Below are positions 41,188-63,241 of a stretch of DNA of 64,000 bases, in pieces. The stretch lies in assembly GCF_004010195.1 (NCBI RefSeq), contig NC_057711.1, positions 17,080,719-17,144,718 of the forward strand. Reading direction: 5' to 3'. The stretch is from Chiloscyllium plagiosum (lineage: Eukaryota). The notes below the pieces were generated by a model that was given only the letters and a program-made list of their open reading frames with translations, searched no databases and had not been told where the DNA came from. Within the stretch, counting starts at the first letter, position 1. The number at the start of each line of letters is the position of its first letter. The position numbers and the translations under genes were made by a program.

Positions 41188-41650
41188 CAGTCATAGAAAC
41201 ATAAAATCCCTACTGTGCAGAAAGTGGCCATTCAACCCATTGAGTCTGCTCCAGCCCTCCAAAGAGCATTCAACCTAGACCCAGTCCCCCTCCCTATCCC
41301 TATAACCCAGCATTAACCACGGTTAACTCACGTAGTCTGCACATCCCTGGATATACTACAATTTAGCCTGGTTTGGATCAGAGTGGTGCTGGAAAAGGAT
41401 AGCAGGTCAGGCAGCATCTGAGGAGCAGGAAAAATCGACGTTTCTGGCAAAAGCCCTTCATCAGGAATGATTCCTGATAAAGGGCTTTTGCCCAAAACGT
41501 CGATTTTCCTGCTCCTCGGATGCTGCCTGACCTGCTGTGCTTTTCCAGCACCACTCTGATCTAAACTCTGGTTTCCAGCATCTGCAGTCCTCACTTTTGC
41601 CTACAATTTAGCTTGGCCAATCCACCTAACCTGCACACCTTTAGACTATC
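41188..41650 (-). mobile_element. HE1 SINE 3' part, split by a palindromic PLE
   Basis: Sequence rejoins across the TSD as CAATTTAGC-TGGCCAATCCACCTAACCTGCACA. Confidence 0.85.
41371..41600. mobile_element. Non-autonomous palindromic PLE derivative inserted in an HE1 SINE
   Basis: About 98-bp inverted arms centred on 41469 (TCAGGAAT-G-ATTCCTGA), plus a ~33-bp one-sided tail. TSD CTACAATTTAGC at 41356-41367 and 41601-41612. Confidence 0.9.
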
Positions 41651-42799
41651 CTTATTGAGTTTTCTTTTAAACTCACAATAAGAATAAATAATAAAGCACA
41701 GTCAAACACACAGTTAGATGTAGACAAGCACTGTATCACATTCGTAAAGTTCGCAAGGCCATTCTGGCACTGAAATTGTATACCTTGCAATGGAAACATG
41801 TCAAAGTCATTTCTCCAGATACATAAAAAGCCAGACTGCCACAGCTGACATGGGCCTGCATTGAAAATATTTGAATCCAGCTAACTTACCGACCCACAAC
41901 CCCAAGCCACATATAGCGATCAGTCATTTCCATCTTGCCTCCACATGAAGCAATGGAGAGGAGACGTCACGTTTGTTTACACATGACATGAATGTACTAA
42001 TGCAAGTGAGAACTGAACTCATACCAAGTATCTTGAGTTGGAAAATCACAACAGAAAACCTTTACGGACAATCCCTCGGGGAGTGCAGGCAATAAAATAT
42101 GTACGGAAATAAGAAGAATGGGAAGTGTCCACCCATGCCCAGAAGATTTAGTGCCTGAGTCCCTGTCCATTGTTGGAGTTATCTCTATGGGAGCTGCATC
42201 ATATGGATATCCCTACATTTAAAGTGGATAGTTTTATAAAAAATATGAACTAGTGTGTTCAGATAAATGACCACAGAATTCCTTGAGGTTGCTAAGCATC
42301 ACTGGCTTTGTTCCACACTTGAGAAAGCAACCATAATTGATGAAGCTTCTCTTTATGAAGTGTAGATCAAAGCTCATTGCTCACCTGACTTGCCACCTCT
42401 TCCCATTCTTCGGTTGATAGAATGATTTAGCTCAATCATTCTATCAACATTTTTCATGTTTTTAACACCTCAGTTAATTGCCCCCTTAAATTTGAGAGAG
42501 CAATGCCACATTCTCTGGTGTGCTGAAGACCTGCATTCCCAGTACCATTCTGGTAAATCTTCCGCTGACTGTTCAATTAGATGAAGTTTGAAGATGATAC
42601 ATCTCCAAAACAATCACTGAGAGATTAGGGACATTTACATTAACCTGCATCATTGTATTAATCACCCCCTTTATAAAACAGACACTAAGAAACACACGCT
42701 AATGATGCAGATAATGTTTAGCTTCAGCAGACAGCACTCTGCAGTCCATGCAAGAGGAATAGCATTCATTCAACAGCTCCTGGCATAGCAAGTCAAAGC

Positions 42800-43620
42800 T
42801 AATAGAGTCATAGAGATGTACAGCATGGAAACAGACCCTTCGGTTCAATTCATCCATACCAACCACATATCCTAAATTTATCAATCCCATTTGCCAGCAC
42901 TTGGGCCATATCCCTCTAAACTCTTCCTTTTCATATATCTGTCCAGATGCCTTTTAAATGTTATAATTGTACCAGGCTCCACCACATCCTCTGGCAGCTC
43001 ATTCCATACACACATGGTGGCTCAGTGGTTAGCACTGCTGCCTCACAGTGCTAGAGTCCTAGGTGCAATTCCAGCTGAGGGTGACTGTCTGTGTGGAGTT
43101 TGCACATTCTCCCCATAACTGTATGGGTTTCCTCCCACAGTCCAAAGATGTGCAGGTCAGGTGTCAGATGTGCAGGCCCATAGTGTTAGATACAATAGTC
43201 AGAGGGGGGTGGGTTGCTCTTCAGAGGGTCGGTGTGGACTTGTTGGGCCGAAGGGCCTGCTTCCACACTGCAGGGAATCTAATCACCACCCTCTGCATGA
43301 AGTTGCTCCTTAGGTCACTTTTTTATCTTTTCCCCCCTCACCCTAAACCTATTTCCCTCTAGTTCTGGAGTCCCACTCCCTAGGCAAAAGACTTGTCTAT
43401 TTACCCTATCTATGCCCCTCATGATTTTATAAGTGTCTGTAAGGTGACCTCTCATCCTCCAACCTCCCAGGAAAACAGCCCCAGCCAATCACCCTCTCCC
43501 TATAGCTCAAAGCCTCCAACCCTGGAAACATCCTAATAAATCTTCTGTGAACCCTTTAAAGTTTCATAATATCCTTCCTATACGAGGGAGATCAGAACTA
43601 CACACGATATTCCAAAAGTT
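42800..43620 (-). mobile_element. CR1 3' fragment interrupted by an HE1 SINE
   Basis: ATAGAGTCATAGAGATGTACAGCATGGAAACAG tail. Resumes after the SINE at 43285. Confidence 0.9.
43011..43284 (+). mobile_element. HE1 SINE
   Basis: GGTGGCTCAGTGGTTAGCACTGCTGCCTCACAG head and AATCTAATC tail. Confidence 0.92.
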
Positions 43621-44057
43621 GGAGGGTTAGTAATGTAAAGATGTACTCAGCCAGGGGAATTCCGATAGCACAGTCAGTAGGTTTTAAGGGCTTTTGGCAA
43701 ACAGATGTAATCTTCTCACTCCCACTGAGCTAGAAGGTCTGAGTTCAATTCCAACATGCAACAGATATGTGCTATAACACGTACAAACAGATTGATAGAA
43801 AGTTTTTATTTGTATTCAGAGAGGAGCTTGCTCACAGACGTGGGCTGTTGGGAGAGGTGAAGAGATATAGAGTGGAAATTCAGAGTTTAGGGCGGAGGCA
43901 ACTGAACACATGGCCACCAATATTGCAGTAATTAAAACTGGGGATGCACAAGAGGTGAGAATTGGTGGAACATAAATATCTGAGAGAGTTACTGGGCCAG
44001 AGGAATGCTACAGCAATAGGGAGAGGTCCATCAAGGGAATGACAGGTTTACAATTTA

Positions 44058-44335
44058 AAAAAAACCAAACACAGCGATTGCTGGAGAAACTCAGCAGGTC
44101 TGGCAGCATCTGTGGAGAGAGAAAAGCAGAGTTAACATTTCAAGTCTGATATGACTCCTCTTCTGAACATACAATCCTTCTATGGGGGCTTTTACAAAAG
44201 AGTCTTACCAAACTTGAAACATTGGCACTATTTCTGTCTCTCTCTCCCAACAGATGCTGCCAGACTTGTTGAGTTTCACCAGCACTCCTCTGTGTTTGTT
44301 TTAAATTTCCAACATCTGCAGTACTTTGCTTTTAT
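44058..44335. mobile_element. Older palindromic PLE derivative
   Basis: GCTGGAGAAACTCAGCAGGTCTGGCAGCATCTG and its inverse CAGATGCTGCCAGACTTGTTGAGTTTCACCAGC. Tail CATCTGCAGTACTTTGCTTTT on the right side only. Confidence 0.8.
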
Positions 44336-45409
44336 GTAATTTAAGTGCTGGTTTTGCATGGCATGATTTGCCAAAATTTAGCTTACTTCTTGTGGTGTAG
44401 CGTGAGAATCTCCACCCAATCACTTTAGCTGGCGCAAAATTGGGCTTGCAGTGTACTGAGAAAATGGTCCTGCATGCCTCAGTTGACACATTCATTGTGA
44501 GAGTGTGTGATGTTTCATGATGGAAGGGTAGAAGCAGAGGATACACCATTCGGGTAAATATTAAAATTGAGGGAGATAGATTGCTCAAGCTGAAAATCTA
44601 TTCCATTGAGCATCATTATTGTCAGAACTGATTTGTTGAGAAATCGTCAATTATGAAGAGGCGCACTTCGGTTGAATTACCTTGCTACCCAGCACGACTA
44701 AATTTCAGACATAAGCATTTATTTTATACGGAGTAAGATTTATTTTTAAGATTAATATTTGGGGAGAAGGAGTTTCATGCATTAAAATGGACTGAAAGGC
44801 AAATCTTAATATTGAGCCATTGGCAACAGTCACACTAAAGAAAGGGCTTTTGATCAGGTTGTTACCATAGCAACAGTGCACATCAAATGTTGTGAAACCT
44901 CATCCTGCTGGGTTATTTTTGAATGCATTCGCTGGAACACACTCTTTGAAACAAAGGTTTCAAACACTTAATAGCTGACATTACCAAAAAGATCAAAATG
45001 CCACGATTTCAATACAATTCTTTTTATCTGAACAATGCAGCAGCAACCCATTTAGCATTTTAAATCAATCTATTAAACAGTTGCTCAAATTGAATGGAAC
45101 TATTCCATAAAGACAGCATTTTCCACAAATCACCCTTGTAGAGCCCAATAAAGATGCTGGGATTGAAACCTCAGTGAAATTTTGATTCCCAATGTTTTAA
45201 CTGACTTATACAGAGAACAATAAGATAATGGGATGTGTTGGCAAATGAACTTGTAATAGTGTTGAAGACCAAGGAAATGAAAGTCAAGTAAAGGGTTTAA
45301 CACGAAAAGGTTGTGGCAAAATTCGGCTGGGAGATAATAGATCACGTCTGAGTCAACAATTTTGAAGATCATCAGGTGTCCCACCCACTTTCACTCTTCC
45401 CTGACTAAA

Positions 45410-45446
45410 ATGGAAGAGACAATGGTCATATGGAAGAGACAATGGT
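45410..45446 (+). repeat. 20-bp-period tandem duplication
   Basis: ATGGAAGAGACAATGGT at 45410 and 45430. Confidence 0.9.
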
Positions 45447-46174
45447 TGGGGCATATGGTCTATAACTTCCCTGTTTGAGCTCAACTGCTGCTGATCCTGT
45501 CATCCACGCTCTTGTATATACTAGTGGTGAAAGGTATACGAGTGAGCCAAGTTGCTGGTATGTGCCATTGGGTGGAATACCTAGCCTTGGTCCAAGCATG
45601 AGTGTCCTGTTAAGATCACAGTTGAAGAACCACCCACTAGTCACCCCTATTTTGTAGGTAAAGGTTTCTCTTGCTCTGAGTGTGAGAAAGTAGCAAACTG
45701 TCCAATAGGAAACAGAACAAGAGAAAGACTTTCTCGATCTAAGTGCTGTCAATTAACCACAGTCAAAAATAACCAGGACAAAAGGATTTTGATCAACCTG
45801 CAAGACCAAGAATTTCAAAACTGATGGCTCAATTAACAACTCCATACAGAAAGGCACCTGAGAGTGGAATTGAATCCAGTTTCCTGACTCAGTGAGGCAG
45901 CAATGTTAACCACTGAGCCAGCATGCCAGCCTAGAATTGGGATATTTCGTTATGATAATAACAGAATATAAATAAAAGTTGTTCCAGTTATACATCTCCA
46001 ACTAAAATGTAATTTTAATCTCGCATTGCTGGAGGACACAAGACTGCAACGTTACCGTAAACAAGAGCTCAGTGATATAGTTACTGCATGAAATATCAGC
46101 GGTGCATTCAACATTGCAAACAGACCAAGGCAGTTCACAGAACCAACTGAATATCAGACACAATTTGGTGCTGA

Positions 46175-46965
46175 ACAACGCACCCAGAATACTATGCGCA
46201 GTTTTAGTCTCCTTGCTTGAGAAAGGATGTGCTGGCACTGGAGGGAGTGCAGAGAAGTTGATTTCGGAGTTGAGAGTGTTGGCTTATGGAGGAGAGATTG
46301 AGTGGACTGGGTCTATACTTATTGGAATTTAGATGAATGGGGGGGGGGGTCATATAGAAGCATATACAATTATGAAGGAAGTAGATAAGATAGAAGCAGG
46401 GAGGTTGTTTCCCTGGTTGATGAAACTAGACCTAGGGGGGTAATCAACTAGGTAAAAACAATGACTGCAGATGCAGGAAACCAGAGTCTAGATTAGAGTG
46501 GTGCTGGAAAAGCACAGCAGTTCAGGCAGCATCCGAGGAGCAGTAAAATCGACGTTTTGGGTAAAAGCTCTTCATCAGGAATCCTTACGAAGGGCTTTTG
46601 CTTGAAACATTGATTTTACTGCTCCTTGGATGCTGCCTGAACTGCTGTGCTTTTCCAGCACCACTCTAATCTAGGGTGGGAATCTTCTAAGGGAGCAGAT
46701 TTAGGGCTGAGTTGAGGAGGAACTTCTTCAGCAAAAAGATTGCAAATCTGTGGAACTCCCTGCTCAGTGAAGGAGTTGAGGCTGCCTTGTTGACTGTTTT
46801 AAGGCAACAATGGAATGACTTTTTGCACAGTAAAGGACTTAAGGGAAAACCCTTAAGGTGAGCGGGTTGGGAAGTGGAGTTGAGTCCATGAAAACTGAAT
46901 GGCGGAACAGGCTCGACAGATTAGATGGCCTAATTCCTGCTCCTATTTCTTCTGCTCTGATGTCC
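46175..46965 (+). mobile_element. CR1 3' fragment interrupted by a palindromic PLE
   Basis: Decayed LEYC.QFWSP / GL.YEERL / RRNFFSQ.V.NLWNSLP motifs and a CCTGCTCCTATTTCTT tail. Confidence 0.8.
46446..46670. mobile_element. Non-autonomous palindromic PLE derivative inserted in a CR1 fragment
   Basis: Inverted arms centred near 46582 with the tail on the left. Imperfect 14-bp TSD CTAGGGGGGTAATC (46432) / CTAGGGTGGGAATC (46671). Confidence 0.9.
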
Positions 46966-49900
46966 TTAGAATGAGGCTTTATAGTACATGAACAAATACA
47001 TAGTCAAAGAGATGTGTTTTAGGGGCTATTTTTAAAGAGACAGAGAGAGAGAAAGAAAGAAGCAGACAAATTGAGAAGTAAAGAGGCTTTGGAAGAGAAT
47101 TCCAGACTGTAGGCATGTTAGACTTTGGTCAACTTGGACAACTCCACTTCTCACTTCCTTCCCATATCCCTCTGATTCCAGAGAGACCAAAGATCCACCT
47201 GACTCATCCTTCAGTGTGTTTGATGAGGAAGCATCAATAACCCCCGATGCAGAAACTTCTCCTCTCCTTAATCCCTAATGATCACTCTGTATCCTAATTC
47301 TGGGCCCCATGAGTCTTACCACCTTTTGAAGTTGAGAGTCCTGCCTCATGGATTAGAATACATGTTAGTCTGAAACAACATTGACACTGTAGAAATAACT
47401 ATGATATTTCCTCTTCAACCTGTGAATATAGTTTGATGCTTGGGTATCTTAAATCTCTGAAGAGATTTCACCAAATAATGATTGTCTTCATCCTCATTCA
47501 GTTTCTCTTGCGATGTAACAGTGAAATAGACTCTGAATCACACCAATATTATACCTCTGGCAGCAAAATAACTATGTACCTTAAATTCTGCTTGTTTTAA
47601 AGTTCTGCAAAGCCACTTTACAAAGTGTGTCCAACAGAGAAAATCATCATATCAGCTAATGTGCTAACAACGTGGTAGGATCTTAACAGCAGATTGTGAT
47701 ACTACATAGAATTACACAGAAGTTTCCAGCACAGACACGGGCCATTCTGCCCAAAAGGACTGTGCTGGTATTTATGCTTCATATAAGATTTCTCTTATTG
47801 TGTTACACTATTAATTTACCTCTCGATTCCTTTTTCCCCAATGTAGTTATTTAGCTGCCTCTTAAATGCTATTCATTTTAATGACTCATACAATTAAACA
47901 CAACAAATAATTAACTGTAATTTGGCAGCATTGACCATATAAGCACCAATACTGTATCACAAGAAGTTTGAAAGTTTGTGTTTCAAGGGTTATCAAATAT
48001 TCCCTGCCCATTTCCATCACAAATACTTTAAGAAACTTACCACTTGTTATTTTTATTGCATATAAAGCAACAGAAATCTGAACTCTGACATTGGTAACTT
48101 AGTATTAACTGAACTATAAAAATTGAACTAGATGCTAATGTTTCAAATCCAAACCAGGACCATAAAGTGGCTGGATATTCTTCCATTCCATCACCTAAAT
48201 AGGATAGAAAATCAGGCAGACAGAACTATCACAATGTCCACAGCCTGACCTGGATTTGCTGTTATTTTATCCCAACAGAGAGAAGGCCACAAGAGGACCT
48301 TTTCACCAGTCTGCCTGGCAACCAAGCTGATTTCCTTGCCTTCCGCTGCTGTTCATAGGGAAACCAGTGAGAAGGATGGTGGGTTTCTCTGGGAGGACCC
48401 TGACACTAACACTTGGTGTTAGGGCCCCAGTTCAATCAAAACCAAAAATCCACAGGAGCTTAACGACCACGTGAGGAGGTCTTTCCTAGACAGATCAACA
48501 CAATACTGCACTTTCCTTCTCCAACACAGCCTTGAAGCTTATAGCATTGTAAATTATCTTGTTGAATGAAGGTATAGAAACCTAGTGTTATAATATATAG
48601 CACTGGACTGATAATACTTGGATTAGCACCGAATGGCAGTAGGAACTATGAATTTTAATTTTCTATTGAAACCAAAAGTAACATAAACCCTGGTCAGATG
48701 CAAGACTTCCACTAGTCCATAAATATTATCAAAGCTGTTTCATAATTTCCGCAATAAATTATGTGTTGAGTACTTTTATTTTACAATAACAGAAAGGGAC
48801 AGTTCTAAAAGTCACATTTCATAATGATCATCTGTCCCTGTGTTTCCAAAAATCCACAGGTCAATGATTCACCTTTCTCGCTAAGTGTTAATTGCCTGAG
48901 AGGATGAAGAACTACAGCTTGAGCTGGATCCTTCTGACCTCAAAAAACTCAGAAATGGGTGTGGGAATTGGCAATAGCTGAATCCACAGGACTAGAAAAT
49001 TTGAATGATGTGTCAAAAACAGTCCCACACAAACCTCCCACAGGAGTGAGGAGGTTAGCATTGGGTTTGCATTGTGATCCTGCATGCACTGTATGTGTGA
49101 CGCCACAGACACCATTGACAGACCTAAGTGTGAAATTTGCATATCGTTCATATCCCATGGTAGTTTGTCGGGTGAGTTTTGGAACTCACTGGTTCAGGCA
49201 GTCCAGGAATTATGTTCGAAATATTTTGAGGAGTCAGGAACATTTTGACTGGTAAATGTTAATTTTTTTTTATCAACTTCTCCCATGTTTTCCTAATCCT
49301 ATTTCTCACATTATTTCAAATATCATTATTAGATGCGGTATTATCAGATGGGTTTTTACTGCAGTAATTTGTTGCTGGGTTCTGTTCTGAAAATGCAAAT
49401 TAACTATTGCATTGAACAGCATTCAGTAAGTATTGAGATGCACTTCAGTATGTTTCTAACTGGAAAAGTTACTACAGTAACACTGAATCTTAGTTACAGT
49501 GACCATAGCTTTCGTCAAATGCTGTAAAAACCGATTTAGTTCACTTTAATCTGGAAATCAGTCATTCTTACCTGGTCTCATCTAAATGTGACCAGAGACT
49601 CACAACAACACGATTGACTCTTAACTGTCCTCTGAAATGGACCAGCAAGCCATTTAGTTCAAGGGCAATTCAGGATGAGAACAAAGGCAGAAATTGCTGA
49701 TGGAAGCTTACATTCCAAGAGTGGTTTAAAGAAAAGTGCTACTGTATATTCAAAACTGTGGAAAAGACAGTTTGAGGATTGGCATATTATGATTGGACAT
49801 GATTCAAATGTCCAAGGTGCTCCAGCATAGATCCAAAATTGGCCTGCTGCTTTATCTTAGGAAAAATGCAGCCACCTGCTTCTGGAATTATTTGAGTGTC

Positions 49901-50336
49901 AGACCTTCTGGTGTAAGTTGAAATAAACTGAACCAGCTGTTCTTTCAGTTTCAATAGAGCTACAGATTTAGATCTAGGTTTATTTAATATTGTCTCTTGC
50001 ACCTAGGGACAGTGAAAAGTGGATAACATCGCCCCGTTCCAAAACCATCTTTGATTGTAGAATGCATTACTGAATAAACTGTACGTATCGTAAAATACTG
50101 AATAAATTAACATTAAATTAATATTACTATAACTGAAACAGCTTCAAAAGTTCATGTTTCCCTCCCAGTAGACTTCACCTTCTCTGTTCCTCCAGTTGCT
50201 GTCATCTGACATCAAGAGGGTCAAGTCTTGTGCTTTTTTCCTGCCGTCACCAGTGCTGTCGCTTCCACCTCCACCACCTTCCAGTTGGAGACAGTCACAT
50301 TGCACAAGACCTACAAGTCCTCCAATGCTGGACATC

Positions 50337-50450
50337 AACTGACAGGTCCTCGCTTCAAGTTGACCAACAGGACTCTGGTTTGGAGTTGACCAACGGGGTC
50401 CTGGTTTGGAGTTGACCGACTGGCTCCGAGTTGACGGACAGAGTCCTGGC
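50337..50450 (+). repeat. Degenerate ~26-bp minisatellite, about 4 units
   Basis: Repeats of AAC.GG..CTGGTTTGGAGTTGACC. Confidence 0.8.
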
Positions 50451-50700
50451 TCACCTTCTGATGCTGCCACCCTGGATGGAGCCAGGATGGAGATACATAG
50501 GACCCTGGCCTCCCACAGGAGGACATCAGGAGGAGGCCCAAAGGTACGCGAAACAAAATAAAGCATGACTGAGCTACCAAGCTGGAAATACGACAATAAA
50601 GCCCAACCCGCCGCCTGAGTCCATGAGCAGCCAAGCTCAGGAGCCAAACACCTGTTGTCCCTGCCACCATAATTGTTGGTTTTTACAGCTGAGTCAATTA

Positions 50701-50957
50701 GGGTGATACGGTGGCTCAGCAGTTAGGACTGCTACCTCACCATGCCAAGGACCCAGGTTTAATTTCACCCTTGGGCGACTGTCTGTGTGGAGTTTGTACA
50801 TTTTCCCTGTGTCTGTGTGGGTTTCTTCCCATAGTCCAAAGATGTTAGGTGGATAGGCCATGCGAAGTGCAGGATTACAGGGTCTAGGTGAGATGCTCTT
50901 CCAAGTATCAATGTGGACTTGATGGGTTGGTCTGATTCCACACTGTAGAGATTACGA
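50701..50957 (+). mobile_element. HE1 SINE, diverged
   Basis: ACGGTGGCTCAGCAGTTAGGACTGCTACCTCAC head and V-domain. Confidence 0.88.
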
Positions 50958-51020
50958 TTGTGAATACCTAGCTGAGTTTCAGAGCTTATGAATGACTGAG
51001 GCCATTGGATCGTTGGATAA

Positions 51021-51494: not shown

Positions 51495-52122
51495 CATAGA
51501 GTCGCAGAGTCATAGAGATGTACCGCACGGAAACAGACCCTTTGGTCTAACTTATCCATGCCAGCTAGATATCCTAACCTAATCTAGTCCCATTTGCCAG
51601 CACTTGACCCATAATCCCTCAAAAGGCGAAAGTGAGAACTGCAGATGCTGGAGATCAGAGTCAAGATTAGAGTGGTGCTGGAAAAGCACAGCGGGTCAGG
51701 CCGCATCTGAGGAGCAGGAAAATCAACGTTTCGGGCAAAAGCACTTCATCGAAAATGAGCATTCCCGATTAAGGGCGTTTGCCTATTCCTACTCCTCGGA
51801 TGCTGCCTGACCTGCTGTGCTTTTCCAGCACCACTCTAATCTTGACCCATATCCCTCTAAACCCTTCCTATTCATATACCCATCCAAATGCCTTTTAAAT
51901 GCTGTAATTGTACCAGCCTCCACCACTTCCTCTGGCAGCTCATTCCACATACGCACCACCCTCTGCATGAAAAAGCTTCCCCTTAGATCCCTTTTAAATC
52001 TTTCCCCTCTTACCCTAAACCTATGCCCTCCAGCTGTGGGACTGACTAACCCAAGACAAAGACCTTCTCTATTTACCCTATCCATGCCCCTCATGATTTT
52101 ATAAATCTCTATCAGGTCACCC
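51495..52122 (-). mobile_element. CR1 3' fragment interrupted by a palindromic PLE
   Basis: GDLIEIYKIMRGMDRV...WNELPEEVVEAGTITAFKRHLD. Confidence 0.92.
51621..51840. mobile_element. Non-autonomous palindromic PLE derivative inserted in a CR1 3' end
   Basis: Inverted arms centred near 51758. TSD CTTGACCCATA(A)TCCCTC at 51603-51620 and 51841-51857. Confidence 0.9.
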
Positions 52123-53020: not shown

Positions 53021-53278
53021 GAAATTACCATTCATGCTCACTGGCTACATTGTCTTCTGATTCTAAGTTGAACATCTTTGTTTTCAAATTCTGGAATGAC
53101 CTAATGCCTTCTTCATTCTGTGACCTCCTCCAGCCTCACAAATGTGAAAGCTATCTGCATTTCTGTAATTATGACCTCTCTGCTGTCCATTATTTTCATT
53201 GCTCCATCTTTGGCCAAAGTCCTAAGTCAGGGAAAGCATTCCCATGGTCTCGATACCAAATTCTCTGCATCTCTCCCT

Positions 53279-53568
53279 CCTTCGGCCCAACAAGTCCACA
53301 CCGACCCGCCGAAGTGAGCGCAACCCACCCAGACCCATTCCCCTACATTTACCCGTTCACCTAACACTACGGGCAATTTAGCATGGACAATTCACCTAAC
53401 CGGCACATTTTTGGACTGTGGGAGGAAACCGGAGCATCCGGAGGAAACCCACACACACACGGGGAGAATGTGCAAACTCCACACAGTCAGTCGCCTGAAG
53501 CGGGAATTGAACCCAGGTCTCTGGCGCTGTGAGGCAGCAGTGCTAACCACTGTGCCAGCGTGCCACCC
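53279..53568 (-). mobile_element. HE1 SINE, young, inside an L2-like 3' end (53030-53700)
   Basis: Nearly identical to 33007-33326 with many CpGs retained. Confidence 0.95.
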
Positions 53569-54860
53569 ACATTGTAGTCGTCAATTGTAAGATTTCCTTA
53601 TGTGGCCGAGTAACAAATGGTGTTTGATAATGCTCCTATAAAGTGCCCTGAGACAGTTGTTCTATGTTAAATCACTATGTAATTGCAAGTTGTTGTTTAT
53701 GGAGACTATCTTATTTTCATTTATTGTGAATCGGCTCAGTACAGTTTAACTTCCAGTTAAGAGCAAAGTTATCCATGCCCAGATTCGTGATTGATGTCTA
53801 CAATCTGCATAGCAGATATGGCACAGCATCTGACATTCACTTCCTCCTGTTGGCAACTGCCTGCCCTGTGCTTGACACCTTCTCCTCGTGACATACAGCA
53901 CTGAGCTAGCACTTCAGATTCTGAGAATTCTTGGTGTGAACTCCTACTTTACCACATTATAGTGCAGTGGTTTCAAGCACCAACATGTTCTCCTGTTCAG
54001 TTCTAATTTTTTTTTAACTATAGCATATAGGGATTCTTTGAATACTACACAAGTTACTTATAATTTAGTGAAGGATCATATGAACTCAGAACTCTTGTAT
54101 AATAAATATTTACATAATAGAGGCCAAAACATGTCCCAATAAAAATGAATGGATGAGTATGAGTTCTCATGCATTCACTAGGCAGACTGGTCTCCCTCAG
54201 TGCCAGATTGACTTTACTTTTCATATCAATTCTTTGAAGTGAATGAAGGGAAGTACAATTCTAATGGAAAGGAAGAATGTCTGGACTTGAATTTCAAAGG
54301 GAAAAACTCCCATAAACATCCCACAATCATTATGGTTGCATCACGCTGTATTTTCAAGAGGTTTCCTTGTAATGACTGGAACTAATTGATTCATGCAAGG
54401 GTAAAGATTTCAAGGGGTGTGGCCAAAAGCTGAGATCCCCTACTCTGGGATTTGCTGTCTGTTTGATTCAGTCAGAAACAGTTGAAGCTGATTATGAGCT
54501 GAGGTGTGCTTCTAAAAGGGCAAAAGTGGATCCCAGCAGAAGAAGCAAGGATAAAGTCCTTTCGGGACTCATGCAGACAGTGTGTAGGCTGGAGCAAAGA
54601 CAAAAAGACAGTTAGAGGCAACCTTTCTTTCCCGACTCACGGTTAGATTGGCTTGGAAGTTTCCAACTATCAAGAGCATCATGGGCACTGGACTTGCAGC
54701 TAAATTAGTATTTGCATCTCCCTATCTTGAAATATCCCCTTTCTGACCCTGAGAATTGCAGTCAACATCATAAGTTTTTTTAATCGATCCATTGCAATTT
54801 ATTCACCAAGAAAAGGAATTGAGCGTGCAATGAATTCATGAAAAGCAATATATAAATGAA

Positions 54861-54985
54861 TTGGAGATGCCGGTGTTGGACTGGGGTGTACAAAATTAAA
54901 AATCACACAACACCAGGTTATAAAGCTAGTGTGCTTCCAATTAAACCTGTTGGACTATAACCTGGTGTTGTGTGATTTTGAACTT
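54861..54985. mobile_element. Palindromic derivative of a different probable PLE family
   Basis: AAAATCACACAACACCAGGTTATA and its inverse TATAACCTGGTGTTGTGTGATTTT, with a one-sided tail. 12-bp TSD TATATAAATGAA at 54849-54860 and 54986-54997. Confidence 0.75.
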
Positions 54986-55519
54986 TATATAAATGAAAGT
55001 ATTTTCACCCTTTGGTTTTCCCTTGTCTGGTCGAAGCCATCTTTCCTTTCTCACTTTGTGTTTGTATCTCTATCTTTGTTTTCAACAGAAGTCCCATTAT
55101 GTTATGTTGGCTGTTAAATAGTTCTCCTTGCTCTTTCCCCATTATCTCTGCAATTCCTTTCTCCTTCAGGTATCTCTGTGTATCACTTTCATACTCACTG
55201 TTACTTACTGTTGAATCTGTTTCCATCTCCCTTCAGCTGGAGCATTCAGTTCTAGAATAGGGCTTCTTTTCTTAGCACATTATTCTCCTCATTCATTATA
55301 CCAAAATGAATTCATCCTCAGTAAACTTAATTTGGTAAAATTCTTCCACTCTTGCACTCATACTTACCCAATACGTAACGTGCTTCCTCTGATTCAGAGG
55401 CTAGAAGCTTCCATCAGTGTCACCCAGCAACTAGAAGGTATAATGGGCTCAGTTCCAGTGACGGCTCCCTTCCCCCTGCACTGAGACTCCTTGCGTCTGT
55501 TCTGTTCTTCTCCCAAGAC

Positions 55520-55968
55520 AACATAGTTGTAGGATCCTTCAGTCCAACTCATCCATGCCAACACATTTGGCATTAATCGCATTTGCCAATATTTGGTCCA
55601 TATTCCTCTAAACTCATCCTATTCATATACCCACCCAGGTGCTTTTTAAGTGTTGTAATTGTACCAGCCTCCACCACTTCTTCTTACAGCTCTTTCCATA
55701 CACGCACCACCCTCTGCATGACAAATTTGCCCCTTTGGCCCCCTTTTAAATCTTTTCCCTCTCACCTAAACCTATGCCCACTAGTTCTGGACTCCCCTAT
55801 CTTGGGGAAAAGACCTTGGCTATTCACCCTATCCATGTACCTAATGGTTTTTTAAACCTCAAAAGGATCACCCCTCAGCCAATGACATTCCAGGGAAAAC
55901 AGCCCCACCTGATTCAACCTCTCACTGTAGCTCAAACCCTCCAACCCTGGCAACATGCTTGTAGACTT
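55520..55968 (-). mobile_element. CR1 3' fragment
   Basis: MLPGLEGLSYSERLNQVGLFSLE...RGD and a 3' UTR like the one at 14793. Confidence 0.9.
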
Positions 55969-57669
55969 CTTGAAAAAAGTGTAATAGGGTAGGAAGGCGC
56001 AGGGTTCAAATCTCTGTTCTCCATTATTGTACTTTTCTGAATGAAAACTTTCATGTTGAGATTTGGTGAAAATTGCTGCTTGTTTGAGGAAAAAAAAACA
56101 CACCTGCTAAGTTCAGCAGCATAATGTTTAGAGAATACTCAAATCGCTCTCTAGGATTTCAGTAGATAAGACTATAATATCCAGTTAAGTCCACCAAACA
56201 TTTGAGCAGCTGTTATAATGGACTTAAAGCAGAGTGATCTGAAGACAACATTATTGAGAATGACCCAATAATACAAACAGCTGCTCTGCTTGTGTACCTA
56301 TGATTCAGGATGATCGACTATAGAAAATTATTTTTCAATATCTAAAGCCTTTTTCCTTTTCGACTTCTAAAGTGAAAAAAAAAACTTTGCACAGAACATC
56401 CCGAACGTTGATGGATTGAAACTCTTTTGTGGGAGCGCCTTATTGCAAATGGGTCTCGGGTTCGAAATTCAGTTTGGTGACTGTCATCCCTCAGCTCTTG
56501 TAATGTTCTTCCTTTTTACCCTAGGTTTTGTTTTAAAAGTTGAATATAAGCAATAAAGCAGAATATTTCTGCCTGTTAAGTCACACAATGTATGGTATGA
56601 ACTCACTTGGGGCATGCATGGTAAGATGACAGCTGCTTTTTCTTAAATTTACTGTTGATAAAGAGCAGTAACATAAGTCAAGATAATAAATGTGTTTCCA
56701 TCAAGCCTATTTCCTTTTCCCCATGGTTCACTTCTAATGAGTGAGCACAGCAGTTCATGGAGGCACTAGCCTAAATGATTTATGAAAAGATTCAATTGCA
56801 TCATAAAATTCAACATCACATTAAGCAAAACATGGGTATATACATTTTAAGTAGAGTGATTCCAACATTTATTATCCCATATTATTAGCTATCATGAGTC
56901 AAAATGGCAGCTATGTATTTGTTGCTATGATATTCTTCCCTCGTGTAATTCTCCTCTTATGCATCAAAAAAGACCTTACACTGAACACAGGACAGAGTAC
57001 AGCCAGTCTTTCACCCCAAGGCAAGTGAGCAATTAGGAAGACAGAAGTTGGATGCCAAATTTAGACTAAAGACCTCATATCTGGAGCACAGAGCAAGAGA
57101 GAAAGAAACAACAGCCAGACCGTTAATTGACGGCCAGCATTCACTAGTATAAAGGGGCTGGTGACGGTAACCCAGAATAAAGCTCCTGTGCCGTACATTC
57201 ATCAAACAACAAACATTCCTTTGCCAAATGCTTTTGTATCTTCTCAAGAGCACCAGCATTTTCACATTTTTTTCTTTTTCTAAACAAATCACAATTTCTA
57301 AACAAATTGGAGACAGAAATCTGTACAGAAAAATGTAATCACTGGAGGAAAATAAAAGATATGGAAAAGGTGATGTACAGATTTAGAGAAAATGTTTTTC
57401 TAACAGGATAAATTGAAATATGTATACAGGTATATGACTATTAATGTCTACAATGTATCACTTTGTAAATTCACTTTACTGCTCTAAAAATAGGAAAATA
57501 TAAATTCTTTTTCATTTGAATTTAGACACTCATGATGTGCTAAGATAGTCATAAGAAAACATGAATTAGATTACAGCTACAAAGACAGTTCAAATACAAT
57601 CCACCCAGCGCAAATATTTCAAGCATTTTAAAATCAGAATTTTTACAACCATAAATCTGCATAATAAAG

Positions 57670-57775
57670 AGACACAAACATACACAACACATGTACATAC
57701 ACATATGTAGGAACATACATGCATGCACACACATACACATCCGCACATGTGATACAAATGCACACAATTCACAGA
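57670..57775. repeat. Imperfect CA/TA (minus-strand TG) alternating tract
   Basis: ACACAAACATACACAACACATGTACATACACATATG...CACACACATACAC. Confidence 0.85.
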
Positions 57776-57930
57776 CATTTAAGCAGTTTGTGAAAGAAAC
57801 AGAGAACAGACCAACTCACAGCTTCCAACTAATAACACATTTAACTTACAAATTTACCATGCATCTCAGCCAGATAAGAGCAGGGGAAAACAATAATCAT
57901 GCTTTTTGAAGTGTTTCCTTTAATCAATAC

Positions 57931-57967
57931 CTTTCTGTGTTTGCCCTTCTTCCATATTCTCTTCCAT
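57931..57967 (-). CDS. gpm6a: First coding exon of neuronal membrane glycoprotein M6-a (PLP/DM20 family; shark DM-beta)
   Basis: Minus strand reads ATGGAAGAGAATATGGAAGAAGGGCAAACACAGAAAG|gtattg = MEENMEEGQTQK plus a phase-1 G, matching the vertebrate GPM6A N-terminus MEENMEEGQTQKGCFECC. GT donor at 57930-57929. Kozak context gcaATGG. No upstream ATG on this strand for 195 nt. Lies in a repeat-free island. Confidence 0.93.
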
Positions 57968-59250
57968 TGCTGTCTGCTGTCAGTCCGAGATGCTGCACAG
58001 AATTAAACAAAAGCTTCAATTAGGAGCTTAGGAAGCGAGAGAGAGAAAAAAATTTCCTCTGGATCTTCCTTGTATCTGTGGCTTGGGCAAGTCCTCAGAG
58101 CTTGGCTCCTACTCTCTCTCACTCCCCTCCTTTGCCTCGAGATTGCTTGTCAAGTGTAATTTCATTCAAATTACTCTTCCGTGAAGATTATCAATTTTTC
58201 TCCTGAATACTGCCCATTGTGTACCACTGTAAGCATATATTGAGATGACTGAGCTTGCTGAATGCAGACACAACTTTGAATTCTGCTTTCCTCTTCAGAA
58301 TGATTTCAACAAATTGTGTTTTGTGCAGAATTTTGGTGACTTAGACGATGAGGAGGCTTTTTAGCATGGAGCATTTCTGGAAGGGGTGTGCCATTAACAT
58401 GAGAAAAGACCACCAACCCATCTCCCCCTCTTTCCACAGTGGGAAAGCCCGATTGCCTGTGGGCTTTTGTGCTGATCATTCTCACCCAGAGAAATATAGG
58501 GATTGTGTGCGTGTGTATGTTTATGTATGTGTGTGTGCCTGTTTTTCTACAAAAAGAAAGGAACGCAACTTGTAAAAGAAAAGTGTTTAGCTTGATCTGT
58601 TTGAAATTTGATGGCCATTGCTGGTGTCAAGTAATCCAGATCTCCATTGACAAGCTTATAAACCTCTCTAAATTGAACATCATTAGTCTGTCGACATCAT
58701 TACTGAATTTGAATAACTATTGCCTATTGCCAGTCAGGTTGCAGAGATAACTCCATGTGCTTGGAGCATCTGTTAAAAATGCACAGAAACTGCTTTTCCT
58801 TGCTGATTAGAACATTCTAATGGTACCTTGTAACACCAAAACTGGGTACATACATTACACCTCGATTAAATAACCACCTGCATATAGGTAGCATTTTACC
58901 CCACAACAGCAAATGAATTCTGCTACATATCTGCGGGTTGTTTTGGAAAAATATAATGAAAATTTCACCACAGGGTGCCCAGTCATTTGGGGAGCATTCT
59001 GTGGTGTGCATTCAAATGCAAATGACAGGGTATAATCTGGAAATAGATTCGCAATTTTACACTTTCGCCCAGAGTAATGGTGAGATGATAGATTGCGAAT
59101 AAAATCAGTACTTTTGAGTCGAAAGAATGATCATTTTGTTTCTGTGCAATGACGTCAATGCTGCAGAGGGTGTGGGTTTCAAACACTCCTTATATAATCC
59201 GTATTACAAGGTTAAAAATAATACATGCAAAGGGTGGCCATTTGAAGAAT
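57968..59250 (-). promoter_or_regulatory. gpm6a 5' UTR and proximal promoter region
   Basis: Repeat-free sequence immediately upstream of the ATG with a purine-rich leader. ATGCAAAT at 59016-59023 and TGACGTCA at 59150-59157. The TSS cannot be determined from sequence. Confidence 0.6.
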
Positions 59251-59496
59251 TTTTTTTGGTAGTAAGGGAGAGCCACAGTTAATTATTTCAAATGTTTTCA
59301 TGGTGGCATCCCTTTACAAATGTTGATACCCATAGTAGCACATATCCTTATCCTGATTACATTCTCAAACATTTTTAATGTCGGCCACATGTAACTGAAG
59401 TTTGTGCTGTAGGAAATACAGCTTTGTGTGTGTGCAGTATCTAAACCTAAATGGTAACCCATCAACAGTCATGTGATACCATAACAACCTAATGGT

Positions 59497-59677
59497 AGAA
59501 GATCTGAGGATTGCAGATGCTGGAGATCAGAGTCAAAAAGTGTGGCTCTGGAAAAGCACAGCAGGTCAGGCAGCATCCGAGGAGAACGAGAATCAACATT
59601 GATGTCAATATGTTGATTCTCCTGCTCCTCAGATGCTGCCTGACCCGCTGTGCTTTTCCAGCACCACAGCTTTCAGT
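59497..59677. mobile_element. Non-autonomous palindromic PLE derivative
   Basis: Inverted arms centred near 59604. Hammerhead core absent. Tail on the left. Confidence 0.85.
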
Positions 59678-59879
59678 CTGATGGTTGTGACTGCATTCCA
59701 GTTCATGTCCCGAGTAGAATCCTCCCCCAACCCTAGGCTTTTTGCCAAACCATATTGGAAGTCTAAGGTCAGATGAATGCAAACTTCAAAACAATAATGC
59801 ATGAGTGATACATGATCAAACTGACTGATCTGGATAAAGTACTCAGATTAGTATTTTCACAGTTTTACACAGAAATAAA

Positions 59880-60545
59880 GCCTAATTCTGTCAGTAATAT
59901 GGCACAGCACTCAAAGGAACAAGAAATGATTTCCAGATTACTCAGACCCCTTGGCATCATGGTAGCCCACAAACCTACCAACACACGTAAACAGTGACTG
60001 ATGAACCTAAAGGATCCATGAGGTACCACCAGCAAAATTAACATCATTTACAAGATACCATGCAAGAACTGTAAAAAACACTACATCGGACAAACTAGCA
60101 GGAAACTTGCCACCAGGCTACATGAACACCAACTGGCCACCAAAAGACATGACCCACTCTCACTAGTTTTTATACATACAGACAAAGAAGGGCACCACTT
60201 TGGGACAACACACACATCCAAGGACAGGTGAAACAAAACACGCACAATAATTCTTAGAGGCATGGCATTCTAACCAGAACTCCATCAAAAAACACATCGA
60301 TTTAGACCCGATCTACCTTCCCTTGAAAAAAAGAACTGGAAATGACATCACCCACCTTAAGAAACCAAGACCTATAAATAAAGAGGCAGGACATATCACT
60401 AGCACTTCACCAGAGAGTCTCATTGATGATGTTACTGATTATGGTGATGAAACATCTGAAAATAAACCGTCAAGCTCAGCAAGCTAATTTGCATACTTAA
60501 AATCAATCTCAGCTTTATATCTTCTCAAAAATCATTAACCATCAA
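59880..60545 (+). mobile_element. Penelope/Poseidon-type PLE 3' fragment with GIY-YIG domain
   Basis: Translates as RLLRPLGIMVAHKPTNT...NIIYKIPCKNCKKHYIGQTSRKLATRLHEH with stops. Decayed hammerhead TTGATGA-TGTTAC...GTGAT-GAAACATC at about 60421-60458. Confidence 0.88.
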
Positions 60546-60591
60546 CAAGTCTCAGTTCATCCAAATTATTGTAACATTAAATAATTGAGAA

Positions 60592-60905
60592 TGGGGAGGC
60601 GATGGCTTAGTAGTCTTGTCACTAGGTTGTTAATCCAATGTCCCAGGAAATGTTCTGGGTTTGAATTCTGCCACAGCAGATGGTGGAATTTGAATTCACT
60701 AAAAATCTGGAATTAAGAGTCTAATGATTCCATTGCCGATCATCAGGAAAAACATCCAACTCATTCACTAATATGCTTCAGGGAGAGAAACTACCATTCT
60801 TACCTAGTCTGGTCTACATGTAACTCCAGATCCACAACAGTATGGTTGAGTCTTAACTGTCTTGTGAGCAATAAGTATTGGCCCAGCCAGTGACCCTCAT
60901 CCCAA
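60592..60905 (+). mobile_element. tRNA-derived SINE, second family
   Basis: Full-length match to the 5691 copy. Confidence 0.85.
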
Positions 60906-61385
60906 TAACCATAACTCAAGAAGACCCTCTTCAGTAATTGAATAGTTGATAAATTTGGGCTATTGTTAATCTGACATTGAAATACTTTTGGATTTAATTT
61001 AAAGCACTTAAACTAAATCAGAAATTTAAAAACTGTATTATATAGTGTCTCTCAGCAGATGTGCATTTTACCTTTAAGTTAGAATCATTGCCACACTTTG
61101 GAAGAATCTAATACCATAAAACTCTTAGTCTCCATTTTCCTGAGCTCTGCTCTCCTGCACCTTGACATACTGAGGGAAGCATGCTGCAGTCTATCTGACC
61201 TGCTTAGTTTGAGCCCAGAGATGCAAATACCTGTGAAAGTAATGGACATATGTAGATACCAGGAACTGTCATAAAAAGTATATTGCATTCTTTATTACCA
61301 CATGGCCCGAATCTTCTCCTTATGGGAGCTAAAGTAAGTATCACAGAGCAATAATGGGAGACCATCAGTATATTTCACCACATCA

Positions 61386-61421
61386 AGTCCTGAAGAAGGG
61401 CTTATGCCTGAAACGTTGATT
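61386..61421 (+). ncRNA. Minimal type-I hammerhead ribozyme motif (best-preserved copy)
   Basis: Stem I AGUC/GAUU, core CUGAAGA, extra A, stem II GGGC-UUAU-GCCU, GAAAC, GUU triplet. Activity not shown. Confidence 0.6.
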
Positions 61422-61516
61422 CTCCTGCTCCTCGGATGCTGCCTGTCCTGCTGTGTTTTTCCAGCACCACATTTTTCAACTCTGGTCTCCAGCATCTGTA
61501 GTCCTCACTTTCTCCT
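61390..61516 (+). mobile_element. 127-bp PLE terminal unit beginning at the hammerhead core
   Basis: 13-bp TSD ACCACATCAAGTC at 61377-61389 and 61517-61529. Starts CTGAAGAAGGGCTTATGCCTGAAACGTTGATT. Confidence 0.9.
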
Positions 61517-61994
61517 ACCACATCAAGTCTTTCTACCACCTTGCATTATGAACTTTACCAGGTATTTTCAGTGTGTGCAGTCTATGCTGCACAATCTATC
61601 AAAACTTTCATTGTATTTTTTTTCATTATATATGCTGTAACCATTAAATTTGACACCATAGGGTTTACGCCTTATGGGAGATAGCAGATGAGAAAGAGCA
61701 ATGGGGGCAATGGTCCCAATTACTTCCAGCAGAGCATGGTCCTTGTTCAAACAGTCAGGAAAGTGAGCTGTCAGCAGAATGGGTAGTTCATGATGTTAAT
61801 CAGTGTCAAACCTTTTCTTTTAAGTACACAACCTGCCATTTTAGACTTTAAGCGTCTGTCCATACTTTATGTGAACTACTCCCAACTGAACATATATTCA
61901 ACAGCTCAAGGGAACCTCCACCAGTGACTTCCACTCAAATTTCAATTGCAATCATTTTGATTTTCTTTTGTTGCTGCAGATTTAGTGGTAGAAA

Positions 61995-62215
61995 TGAGAG
62001 ATATGGCATTGTGGTCGTATCACTGAATTAGTGTCCAGAGGCCTAAGGTAATGCTCAAGTGACAGAGGTTCAAATCCCCTTTCAGGAATATGATGAATTA
62101 TAATGCTCAACTCAGTAATTGTGACCATGATGGCTATTAATGATGGTTGTAAAAATCCAACTGATTCACTGATGACTTTCAGATGAAGAACTCCACCAGC
62201 CTTGACCAGTCTGGT
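61995..62215 (+). mobile_element. tRNA-derived SINE, second family, decayed
   Basis: GGTTCAAATCCC B box and GTGACCATGA...GTTGTAAAAATCCAACTGATTCACT. Confidence 0.7.
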
Positions 62216-62364
62216 AGACAGTGCTGTAGCTGGTAATTTACTACCCTTTGAAATATGCCCAATGGTGCTGGGTACCATCAGCACATTGCTCTGCTGCTGC
62301 CCATCACACTGAAGTCCACACCTGTGCATGCTAAGAAAGGATAAACTTGCAGATTGACGGACTG

Positions 62365-62755
62365 TTCTATGAGGAGAGATTGATTTGTAAGGCCTGTATT
62401 CACTCGAGTTTATAGGAATAAAAGAGGATCTGATTGAAATGTATAAAATTCTAAGAGGGCTGAACAGACTGGACGCAAGGATGATGTTTTCCTTGTCAGG
62501 GAGTCTAGAACCAGGGGACACAGTCTCAGGATAGAAGGCTGTCCATTTCAGACTGAGAGTTTCTTCACTCAAAGGGTACTGAGCATTTGGAATTCTCTAC
62601 CACAGAAAGTTATGGAGACCAGGTCACTGAATAGATTCAAGAAAGAGAGGAAGCAGGAATGAGACATTGAGATCAAGGATCAGCCATGATCATTCGAATG
62701 GCGGAGCAAGCTCCTCGGGCTAAATGACCTACTTCCTACCCCTTCATCCAATGTT
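62365..62755 (+). mobile_element. CR1 3' fragment
   Basis: YEE...GLYSLEF....EDLIEMYKILRGLNRLD motif and a CAGCCATGATCATTCGAATGGCGGAGCA 3' UTR. Confidence 0.85.
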
Positions 62756-63050
62756 TCTTTTTGAGAATTGTCTTTTGGGCTAAGGAAATACCCAAAGCTT
62801 AGAAGAAAACATTTTTAGTTTCAGCTTGGGACAGTTTCAGAAGCTTTAATTGAAGATTGATGTGTAAACTGGCTGTTGATGAAAAAGGGTTGCAGTTATG
62901 ACTGTTTATAAGATGATTATTTTAAACCTTCTGGGCTGGAACTGCCTGGTTAAAAACCTGAAGGGGTTATTTGAAGCTGTGAAAGATTAAGTTCAGTTGT
63001 ATGAATCCTCCAGAAAGAGGCTATCAGATTTTCTGACCAGGAATTGAAAT

Positions 63051-63241
63051 AGAAGAAAGTGGGGACTGTAGATGCTGGATATCAGTATCAAAAAATGTTG
63101 TACTAGAAAAGCACAGCACGTCAGGCAGCACCGGAGGAGCAGGAGAATCAGCATTTAAGGCTTATGCCTGAAACATCGATTCTCCTACTCCTCGGATGCT
63201 ACCTGACCTGCAGTGCTTTTCCAGCACCACACTTTTTTGCT
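63051..63241. mobile_element. Non-autonomous palindromic PLE derivative
   Basis: Inverted arms joined inside the hammerhead region (~63155). 14-bp TSD CCAGGAATTGAAAT at 63037-63050 and 63242-63255. Confidence 0.9.

What the first reader, a model, noticed from the sequence alone, without database searches (positions are those of the whole stretch)
41371..63241. Family of tiny fold-back, hammerhead-bearing retro-insertions (non-coding PLE derivatives)
Seen: at least seven 125-280 bp insertions (41371, 44058, 46446, 51621, 54861, 59497, 63051) share one design. It is two inverted copies of the PLE 3' terminus, only one of which keeps the terminal ~30-45 nt tail. They have no ORF, and five have 12-18 bp TSDs. 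At least three distinct sequence families do this. Established: PLEs form inverted pseudo-LTRs with a tail and carry minimal hammerheads. Inference: these are either a self-standing retrozyme-like or MITE-like non-autonomous family mobilised by PLE RT/GIY-YIG, or the stereotyped product of abortive PLE insertion. This is the best candidate here for an under-described system.
Basis: partly seen in the sequence, partly recalled or inferred. Interest (0 to 1): 0.72.

Follow-up and report, generated by a model that had tools for sequence, protein, structure and literature searches.

The report
Head-to-head Penelope retrotransposon stubs
These hairpin-shaped inserts are real and very common in this genome, but they are not a jumping unit of their own: each joins two short copies of a Penelope-type retrotransposon's ribozyme-bearing end, likely made anew when the enzyme copies its RNA onto both cut DNA strands and runs off the RNA's start.

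Summary
All seven palindromes exist. Each is two head-to-head copies of a Penelope-like element (PLE) pseudo-LTR, one tailed and one tail-less. Five have TSDs (four by script). Only 1 of 14 arms keeps an intact hammerhead core. In 1.37 Mb sampled genome-wide there are 98 head-to-head pairs and 0 tail-to-tail; 90 are tailed plus tail-less, and 89 of those 90 junctions are distinct. The one recurrent junction (925 exact genome hits) carries the tail left in 12 and right in 15 of 30 loci, so it forms repeatedly by microhomology. Arm lengths grade into a full-length RT/GIY-YIG element. The architecture is published. What adds value: arms of paired and solo copies stop about 30 times more often just 5' of the hammerhead than upstream, not at its cut site, and the tail runs on into the ORF start. 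That likely records two-strand priming and run-off at the RNA 5' end. A cap-G signal is strong in one subfamily and absent in another. The scan noted the same thing elsewhere in this genome several times.

The parts
41376..41602 (.). Family A1 palindrome: tail-less arm 41376-41468 (-, positions -4..+87 relative to hammerhead C3) and tailed arm 41470-41602 (+, -4..+128), 1-nt spacer, 16-nt TSD
41437..41468 (-). The only intact minimal hammerhead core among the 14 arms (stem I, CUGAUGA, stem II, GAAA, palindromic ACGU stem III, C17)
   Evidence: activity not tested
44063..44333 (.). Family B (older) palindrome, tail on the right arm, decayed hammerhead, no TSD by script; parent ORF not found
46449..46672 (.). 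Family A1 palindrome, tailed left arm to -4, tail-less right arm from -2, degenerate 14-nt TSD seen by eye
51624..51846 (.). Family A1 palindrome, tailed left arm, 10-nt spacer, tail-less right arm from -4, TSD of 11 nt or more; junction not shared by its 29 best genome matches
54856..54986 (.). Family C palindrome (arms start at +54 and +22, no hammerhead box 1), 12-nt TSD; junction unique in the genome at up to 2 mismatches
59505..59682 (.). Family A palindrome with arms starting at +22 and +25 (no hammerhead core), 11-nt spacer, TSD weak
61388..61516 (+). Solo tailed pLTR arm starting at about -2..-4, 13-nt TSD: the same stop without a partner arm
63051..63235 (.). Family A2 palindrome, overlapping arms, no box 1, 14-nt exact TSD
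1008..1993 (-). Long version of the same design: a roughly 50-nt inverted tailed arm plus a roughly 930-bp tail-less arm with PLE coding remnant, 15-nt TSD
6140..6995 (.). Long version: two head-to-head arms of about 400 bp, one tailed
21628..23107 (-). 5'-truncated, decayed PLE body (RT C-terminal half, GIY-YIG) ending in an older A3 pLTR with tail

Best explanation
Each palindrome is a single PLE insertion made of two head-to-head pLTR copies, one tailed and one tail-less, with a junction that differs from locus to locus; it was likely assembled at the target when the PLE protein nicked both strands and primed two cDNAs that would run off at the RNA's 5' end and be joined by microhomology. 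Shown here: the parent of family A is an RT + GIY-YIG element; 3' ends fall at two sites (about +90 and +125) and pair one of each; TSDs are mostly 12-17 nt; 5' ends pile up at -5..-1, just before the hammerhead and not at its cut site (+28); the tail continues into the ORF start, so the pLTR is also the front of the transcript; both arms come from the same subfamily. Shown by others in vitro (PMC11167929): a lizard PLE protein cleaves and extends both target strands and starts at two sites that bound the tail. Inferred: position -4 is the transcription start; the stubs are run-off ('strong-stop'-like) cDNAs from the 5' pLTR; longer arms were primed on the 3' pLTR or jumped onto it; both cDNAs come from one RNA or one source locus; host end-joining seals the centre. 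The hammerhead is a passenger in the stubs.
For: 98 head-to-head vs 0 tail-to-tail pairs; 90 of 98 one tailed plus one tail-less, 1 double-tailed, 7 called tail-less on both arms; 89 of 90 junctions distinct; TSD in 57 of 98 vs 0 of 150 random sites. Recurrent junction: 925 exact hits, tail left 12, right 15, unclear 3 of the first 30, on three haplotypes. Stop rate per base in family A: 0.090 at -5..-1 vs 0.003 at -100..-21 and 0.011 at +27..+30 (276 arms); family C 0.067 at -10..-1 (66 arms). Unpaired arms show the same peak (52 of 148 at -10..+5). 1,173 loci have both arms ending exactly at -4, with varied 0-6 nt spacers. Of 9 copies seen where the tail runs into the ORF start, 5 begin at -4..-1, 2 are shorter and 2 have upstream body. 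L152 is a decayed full-length copy with inverted arm, ORF start, RT, GIY-YIG and tailed 3' pLTR. Arm concordance at 9 diagnostic columns is 0.907 vs 0.542 +/- 0.022 shuffled (188 palindromes). Untemplated G at -5 in subfamily A2: 63 of 100 listed matches vs 11 of 100 one base further in, hand-counted.
Against: The start site is not shown: poly(A) single-cell reads of run X21 (found by species label) gave no pile of read starts at -4, and run X22 laid nothing. The G signal did not repeat in subfamily A1b (23 G, 29 A, 48 C of 100 listed; only 4 single-spacer cases). The two A2 patterns allowed different letters, and palindromic microhomology feeds both counts. Position -4 is also the edge of hammerhead stem I, so an RNA-structure stall is possible. 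Arm concordance could partly reflect gene conversion between arms. Boundaries come from BLAST against three A references and one C reference (about +/-3 nt); a missing subfamily body would fake a stop near -4 in solos, though not in palindromes where the joint is visible. Families B and C were not linked to an RT/EN ORF. 41 of 98 pairs lack a detectable TSD.
Confidence: 0.7

Rival explanations
1. One cDNA is made from the tail site, folds back at its 3' end and copies itself (self-priming), giving the mirror arm; an antisense-template version was proposed in PMC3846280.
For: Arms are concordant at diagnostic sites (0.907). The recurrent junction is what a 3-nt snap-back would give. Self-priming is the published reading of palindromes at inverted PLE junctions.
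Against: A fold-back from a tailed sense-templated cDNA must leave the extra centre sequence on the tailed arm. It lies on the tail-less arm in 15 of 27 informative copies of the recurrent junction, and the tailed arm is the shorter one in 55 of 90 pairs. It could still make a subset of copies.
Confidence: 0.15
2. The arms are ordinary 5'-truncated copies primed on the 3' pLTR, and the pile-up at -4 is an RT stall at the folded hammerhead or a protein bound there, not the RNA's start.
For: -4 is exactly the 5' edge of hammerhead stem I. The cap-G signal is missing in A1b. No RNA start was seen.
Against: RT meets the ribozyme from its 3' side, so a structural stall should fall at +28..+35, where the stop rate is low. 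Copies that certainly derive from the transcript's front begin at -4..-1 in 5 of 9 cases. A2 shows an untemplated G at -5.
Confidence: 0.1
3. The palindrome is itself a non-autonomous mobile unit (retrozyme-like or MITE-like) copied whole by PLE enzymes, with centre variation added later by palindrome instability.
For: One junction recurs 925 times. Lengths cluster near 200-230 bp. About 250,000 copies by extrapolation. An earlier scan note claims signs of whole-unit copying (unchecked there).
Against: Tail side is not fixed for the recurrent junction. 89 of 90 junctions are distinct. No identical complex junction among 89 (two near-matches differ in spacer or subfamily). The 54861 junction is unique genome-wide. 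Unpaired arms share the same stop. In 19 of 84 A/C pairs an arm reaches -7 or further into the PLE body, which deletion from a short master cannot give.
Confidence: 0.04

Closest known systems
Insertion units of endonuclease-positive PLEs with inverted pLTR, 30-40-nt tail and TSD (Arkhipova et al. 2013, PMC3846280; Craig et al. 2021, PMC8557442)
   Same: Head-to-head inverted pLTR, tail at one end only, TSD around the whole unit, heavy 5' truncation, partial tandems with the ORF start behind the tail.
   Different: Here both arms are usually cut down to the pLTR alone, at very high copy number (about 71 per Mb, 1.5% of sampled bases), with a sharp shared stop just before the hammerhead.
PAc (Poseidon of Anolis) in vitro system (Frangieh et al. 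2024, PMC11167929)
   Same: Two RT start sites bounding the tail near the front of the ORF; both target strands cleaved and extended; AT-rich targets (TSDs here 66% A+T); no ends at the hammerhead cut site.
   Different: A different clade (the Cys linker here points to Neptune/Nematis). That paper, in the parts read, does not describe joined head-to-head run-off products or a 5' stop site.
Minimal PLE hammerheads (Cervera and De la Pena 2014, PMC4209133)
   Same: Type I minimal core with palindromic 15.2-16.2 positions inside the pLTR; dual motifs 100-700 bp apart on opposite strands were noted there and assigned to truncated PLEs.
   Different: Sharks are not named in the parts read; no junction analysis there.
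Animal non-LTR retrozymes (PMC7229834; bioRxiv 10.64898/2026.07.22.740005)
   Same: Short, non-coding, derived from or related to PLE pLTRs, hammerhead sequence.
   Different: Retrozymes are head-to-tail tandem units with a hammerhead in each unit, expressed as linear and circular monomers. These are head-to-head, non-clonal and mostly lack an intact core.
L1 twin priming and LTR-element strong-stop cDNA (recalled; twin priming appears only in the listing)
   Same: Two target nicks prime two cDNAs that are joined by microhomology; run-off at a capped 5' end can add a G.
   Different: In L1 the two cDNAs copy different parts of the RNA; here both copy the same 90-130 nt from fixed start sites.

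Membership tests
Endonuclease-positive PLE insertion | Repeat is the pLTR of an ORF with RT and C-terminal GIY-YIG | tested here: met
   Family A: L121 and L152 carry RT and GIY-YIG coding sequence ending in the pLTR. Pfam GIY-YIG E 0.0086 for the genome fragment, below the curated cut-off; relatives P0002/P0004 hit GIY-YIG and RVT_1, three of the four scores below cut-off.
Endonuclease-positive PLE insertion | Same ORF link for families B and C | not tested
   C has a shared AT-rich upstream body (5 copies) that was not checked for RT/EN; no B body was recovered.
Endonuclease-positive PLE insertion | Inverted pLTRs, head to head | tested here: met
   98 head-to-head, 0 tail-to-tail
Endonuclease-positive PLE insertion | 30-40-nt tail at one end only | tested here: met
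   3' ends bimodal at about +90 and +125; 90 of 98 pairs have exactly one tail
Endonuclease-positive PLE insertion | Target-site duplication around the whole unit | tested here: met
   57 of 98, mostly 12-17 nt; 0 of 150 control sites
Endonuclease-positive PLE insertion | Minimal hammerhead in the pLTR | tested here: met
   Core boxes and palindromic stem III in the consensus of A1, A2, A3 and B, and core boxes in C copies, matched to the description in PMC4209133. Rfam models gave no hit. Cleavage not testable.
Neptune/Nematis clade of PLEs | CX2-5CxxC zinc-finger-like linker plus RT phylogeny | tested here: inconclusive
   Cys linker seen in the window ORF at 1339-1992 and in P0002/P0004 (feature); no tree was built.
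Non-LTR retrozyme | Head-to-tail tandem units with a hammerhead in each | tested here: not met
   The seven are single head-to-head units; 1 of 14 arms has an intact core
Non-LTR retrozyme | Expressed as discrete linear and circular monomers | tested here: inconclusive
   Only poly(A) single-cell raw reads were available; no discrete starts and no circular joints in X21, no reads in X22
Non-LTR retrozyme / non-autonomous clonal family | One unit copied whole (shared junction, fixed polarity) | tested here: not met
MITE | Matching terminal inverted repeats at both ends, uniform size, short fixed TSD | tested here: not met
   Ends are asymmetric (tail), lengths 89-632 bp, TSDs 10-22 nt. The MITE definition is recalled.
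Curated Dfam/Repbase family | Consensus already deposited | not testable with these tools

The most novel reading that the evidence does not exclude
PLEs make a strong-stop-like intermediate: a dimeric RT/GIY-YIG primes both target strands at the two tail-bounding sites on the 5' pLTR of one capped RNA, and both cDNAs run off at a start site four bases before the hammerhead core. If neither jumps to the 3' pLTR, the two are sealed head to head. The roughly 250,000 stubs in this genome would then be a fossil map of the PLE transcription start and of how inverted pLTRs, tails and partial tandems arise.
Probability: 0.5. Interest if true: 0.62.

Novelty: new member of a known kind. Interest (0 to 1): 0.36.

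Why it matters
As a new mobile-element family it fails. As a record of mechanism it has value: how PLEs form their inverted and tandem ends and the one-sided tail is named as unresolved in PMC8557442 and PMC11167929. The stub junctions give sharp predictions (two strand-specific start sites used in one event, run-off at -4, no role for ribozyme cleavage) that the existing in vitro PLE assay can test directly. In practice, about 1.5% of sampled bases in this genome are such hairpins, which automated tools may mislabel as MITEs, microRNA precursors (Rfam gave sub-threshold miRNA hits) or retrozymes.

Tried and rejected
Clonal mobile unit: rejected. Ends set by hammerhead cleavage: no clear peak at +28 (10 of 276 arms at +27..+30). 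Pure snap-back from the tailed cDNA: fails the polarity test for over half of the copies. Later deletion at the centre of a short master palindrome: solos share the stop and 19 of 84 pairs reach into the body. miRNA matches: all below gathering score, explained by the hairpin. An 'intact' 1,032-aa frame at C23 was an N gap; no intact autonomous copy was seen among the loci read. Cap-G in subfamily A1b: not enriched. RNA: no RNA holder listed; X21 reads lie on both strands and 90-95% run on into unrelated sequence, as passengers in host transcripts would; X22 gave no test; the contigs of X1 and X3 cannot show ends. Pfam found nothing in six window ORF fragments, in one RT fragment of L121 or in the ORF start. 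An Inr-like YYANWYY match at -6..0 (consensus recalled) was noticed but overlaps hammerhead stem I, so it was not counted as evidence. No fold or complex prediction was run. Sampling stopped at 1.37 Mb, so rare clonal sub-families are not excluded.
Full report
Observation. The seven inserts are present at the stated coordinates. Each aligns as two head-to-head copies of one 125-135-nt repeat, one ending in a tail and one stopping about 35 nt earlier. Their folding energies are two to three times those of mononucleotide shuffles. Four TSDs were found by script and a fifth by eye. The word 'hammerhead-bearing' overstates: 1 of 14 arms has an intact core, three inserts have mutated cores and three lack the first core box altogether. 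Rfam gave only sub-threshold microRNA and snoRNA matches. Positions below are counted from hammerhead C3 = 0; the predicted cut lies before +28.

Parent element. The window lies in a 3.56-Gb genome. The repeat of family A sits at the 3' end of an RT plus GIY-YIG coding region (L121). The nearest named proteins come from shark and skate records. Behind the tail, some copies continue into a conserved ORF start, and locus L152 joins inverted arm, partial tandem, ORF start, RT, GIY-YIG and tailed 3' repeat in one decayed copy. So the repeat is a PLE pseudo-LTR and is both the end and the front of the transcript. A Cys-rich linker points to the Neptune/Nematis type; no tree was built. Families B and C share the hammerhead, two-ended and head-to-head design, but their ORFs were not traced.

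Census. I sampled the window, 200 kb beside it and 115 further 10-kb stretches at round coordinates on large contigs: 136 records, 1.37 Mb without N. This is not a random sample of the whole assembly. It holds 450 terminal arms and 98 head-to-head pairs, none tail-to-tail. 90 pairs have one tailed and one tail-less arm, 1 has two tails and 7 were called tail-less on both arms. TSDs were found in 57 of 98 against 0 of 150 control sites. Lengths run from 89 to 632 bp. Extrapolated, that is about 250,000 pairs, 1.5% of sampled bases. The window itself also holds longer versions and a solo arm.

Is the palindrome the mobile unit? No. 89 of 90 junctions are distinct and the two arm lengths are not significantly correlated (rho 0.13, p 0.21). 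The one repeated junction has 925 exact matches in the genome. In the first 30 the tail lies left in 12, right in 15 and is unclear in 3, and the junction occurs on three subfamily haplotypes, two of them clearly with both polarities. It is a microhomology hot spot. Among all 232 palindromes held, targeted loci included, 89 have spacers of 4 nt or more; two pairs nearly match, none is identical. The 54861 junction is unique at up to 2 mismatches (3 hits: itself and two different junctions). None of the 29 other best matches to 51621 shares its junction.

Where the arms stop. In family A the chance per base of ending is 0.090 at -5..-1, 0.003 at -100..-21 and 0.011 around the ribozyme cut (276 arms); family C peaks at -10..-1 (66 arms). 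Unpaired arms peak at the same place (52 of 148), so this is a property of the template and not of hairpin decay. 1,173 loci have both arms ending exactly at -4 with varied short spacers. Of 9 copies whose tail runs into the ORF start, 5 begin at -4..-1, 2 later, and 2 carry upstream body. In subfamily A2, where the template has C at -5, G stands there in 63 of the first 100 of 4,684 matches, against A 27 and T 10; one base further in, G is 11 of the first 100 of 5,317. Both are hand counts. Three of the 30 loci opened show a G that neither arm templates, and four solo insertions use a target G. An extra G is what copying of a cap gives (recalled; one search gave only a listing). Against this, subfamily A1b shows 23 G, 29 A and 48 C in the first 100 of 296, only 4 single-spacer cases exist, and microhomology feeds these counts. 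I treat the cap signal as suggestive.

Mechanism. Frangieh et al. showed that a purified lizard PLE protein cleaves and extends both target strands, starts at two sites bounding the tail near the front of the ORF, is predicted to be a dimer, and needs no ribozyme cleavage. Penelope's start site and promoter lie in the pLTR. With the census this gives: staggered nicks about 12-17 nt apart, one cDNA from each start site, both running off at the RNA's 5' end, then joining by microhomology or short fill-ins. Arms agree at diagnostic sites (0.907 vs 0.542 shuffled), so both likely come from one RNA or one source locus, though gene conversion could add to this. Self-priming, the published reading, predicts the loop on the tailed arm for a sense template; that fails in 15 of 27 and in 55 of 90 cases. 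A stall at the folded ribozyme remains possible but would be expected on its 3' side.

RNA. No RNA holder was listed. Poly(A) single-cell reads of run X21 cover the repeat on both strands, mostly run on into unrelated sequence, and show no start pile at -4 and no circular joint; run X22 laid nothing. Such libraries cannot test small or circular RNA.

What is known. Inverted pLTR, one-sided tail and TSD are described in PMC3846280 and PMC8557442. Hammerhead pairs 100-700 bp apart on opposite strands were noted and assigned to truncated PLEs in PMC4209133. Retrozymes are defined by head-to-tail tandems and circles, which these are not. Searches listed no paper whose title or abstract start describes shark PLE stub palindromes or a run-off model; the library is partial and Dfam/Repbase were not available. 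What I saw of each paper: PMC11167929 parts 1-3 of 4 (main text and methods); PMC4209133 parts 1-2 of 4; bioRxiv 10.64898/2026.07.22.740005 part 1 of 5 plus passages; PMC2377424 passages and one section; PMC8557442, PMC3846280 and PMC7229834 passages. No supplements were read; those of PMC11167929 (insertion ends in Anolis) may bear on novelty. Earlier notes of this scan reached the same reading at other places in this genome; I opened them after my own junction tests. One mentions whole-unit copying, which I did not find in 89 complex junctions.

Verdict. A real, abundant, ordinary class of PLE insertion, not a new mobile family. The de novo origin is about 90% certain; the two-strand run-off mechanism about 70%; the full strong-stop reading about 50%. 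Interest 0.36.

Noticed in passing
L289, L290, L305, L309, L311: Mini partial tandems: pLTR with tail, 90-220 nt of ORF start, then a jump back into a second pLTR near -4 (L309 further in), mostly with a visible TSD. They contain only the front of the element and look like repeated template jumps on the RNA's 5' end; two direct hammerheads about 220-350 nt apart make them closer to retrozymes than the palindromes are.
   Followed up: partly
G000, 40 places listed: The ORF start of subfamily A2 matches 39 other loci at 97-99% identity, so this subfamily is young; no intact full-length copy was seen.
   Followed up: no
P0010, P0011, P0012: Public proteins annotated 'mucin-2-like', 'uncharacterized' and 'prostatic acid phosphatase-like' in shark records contain this PLE's ORF start; likely misannotations or read-ins.
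   Followed up: no
window 28588-28960: Another head-to-head fragment of PLE 3' UTR that lacks recognisable terminal arms; Rfam gave it a sub-threshold microRNA match.
   Followed up: no
window 38889-40198, 31808-36014: Decayed LINE reverse-transcriptase fragments of CR1 type (label recalled from the translations), some with frames of 170-270 aa.
   Followed up: no
L226, L189, L249, L255, L134: Junctions filled with short templated copies of the TSD or of the arm itself, the kind of scar left by polymerase-assisted end joining.
   Followed up: no
listing: In subfamily A1b about three in ten listed arms have GC before the -4 position, hinting at a second preferred junction or a different start site in that subfamily.
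   Followed up: no
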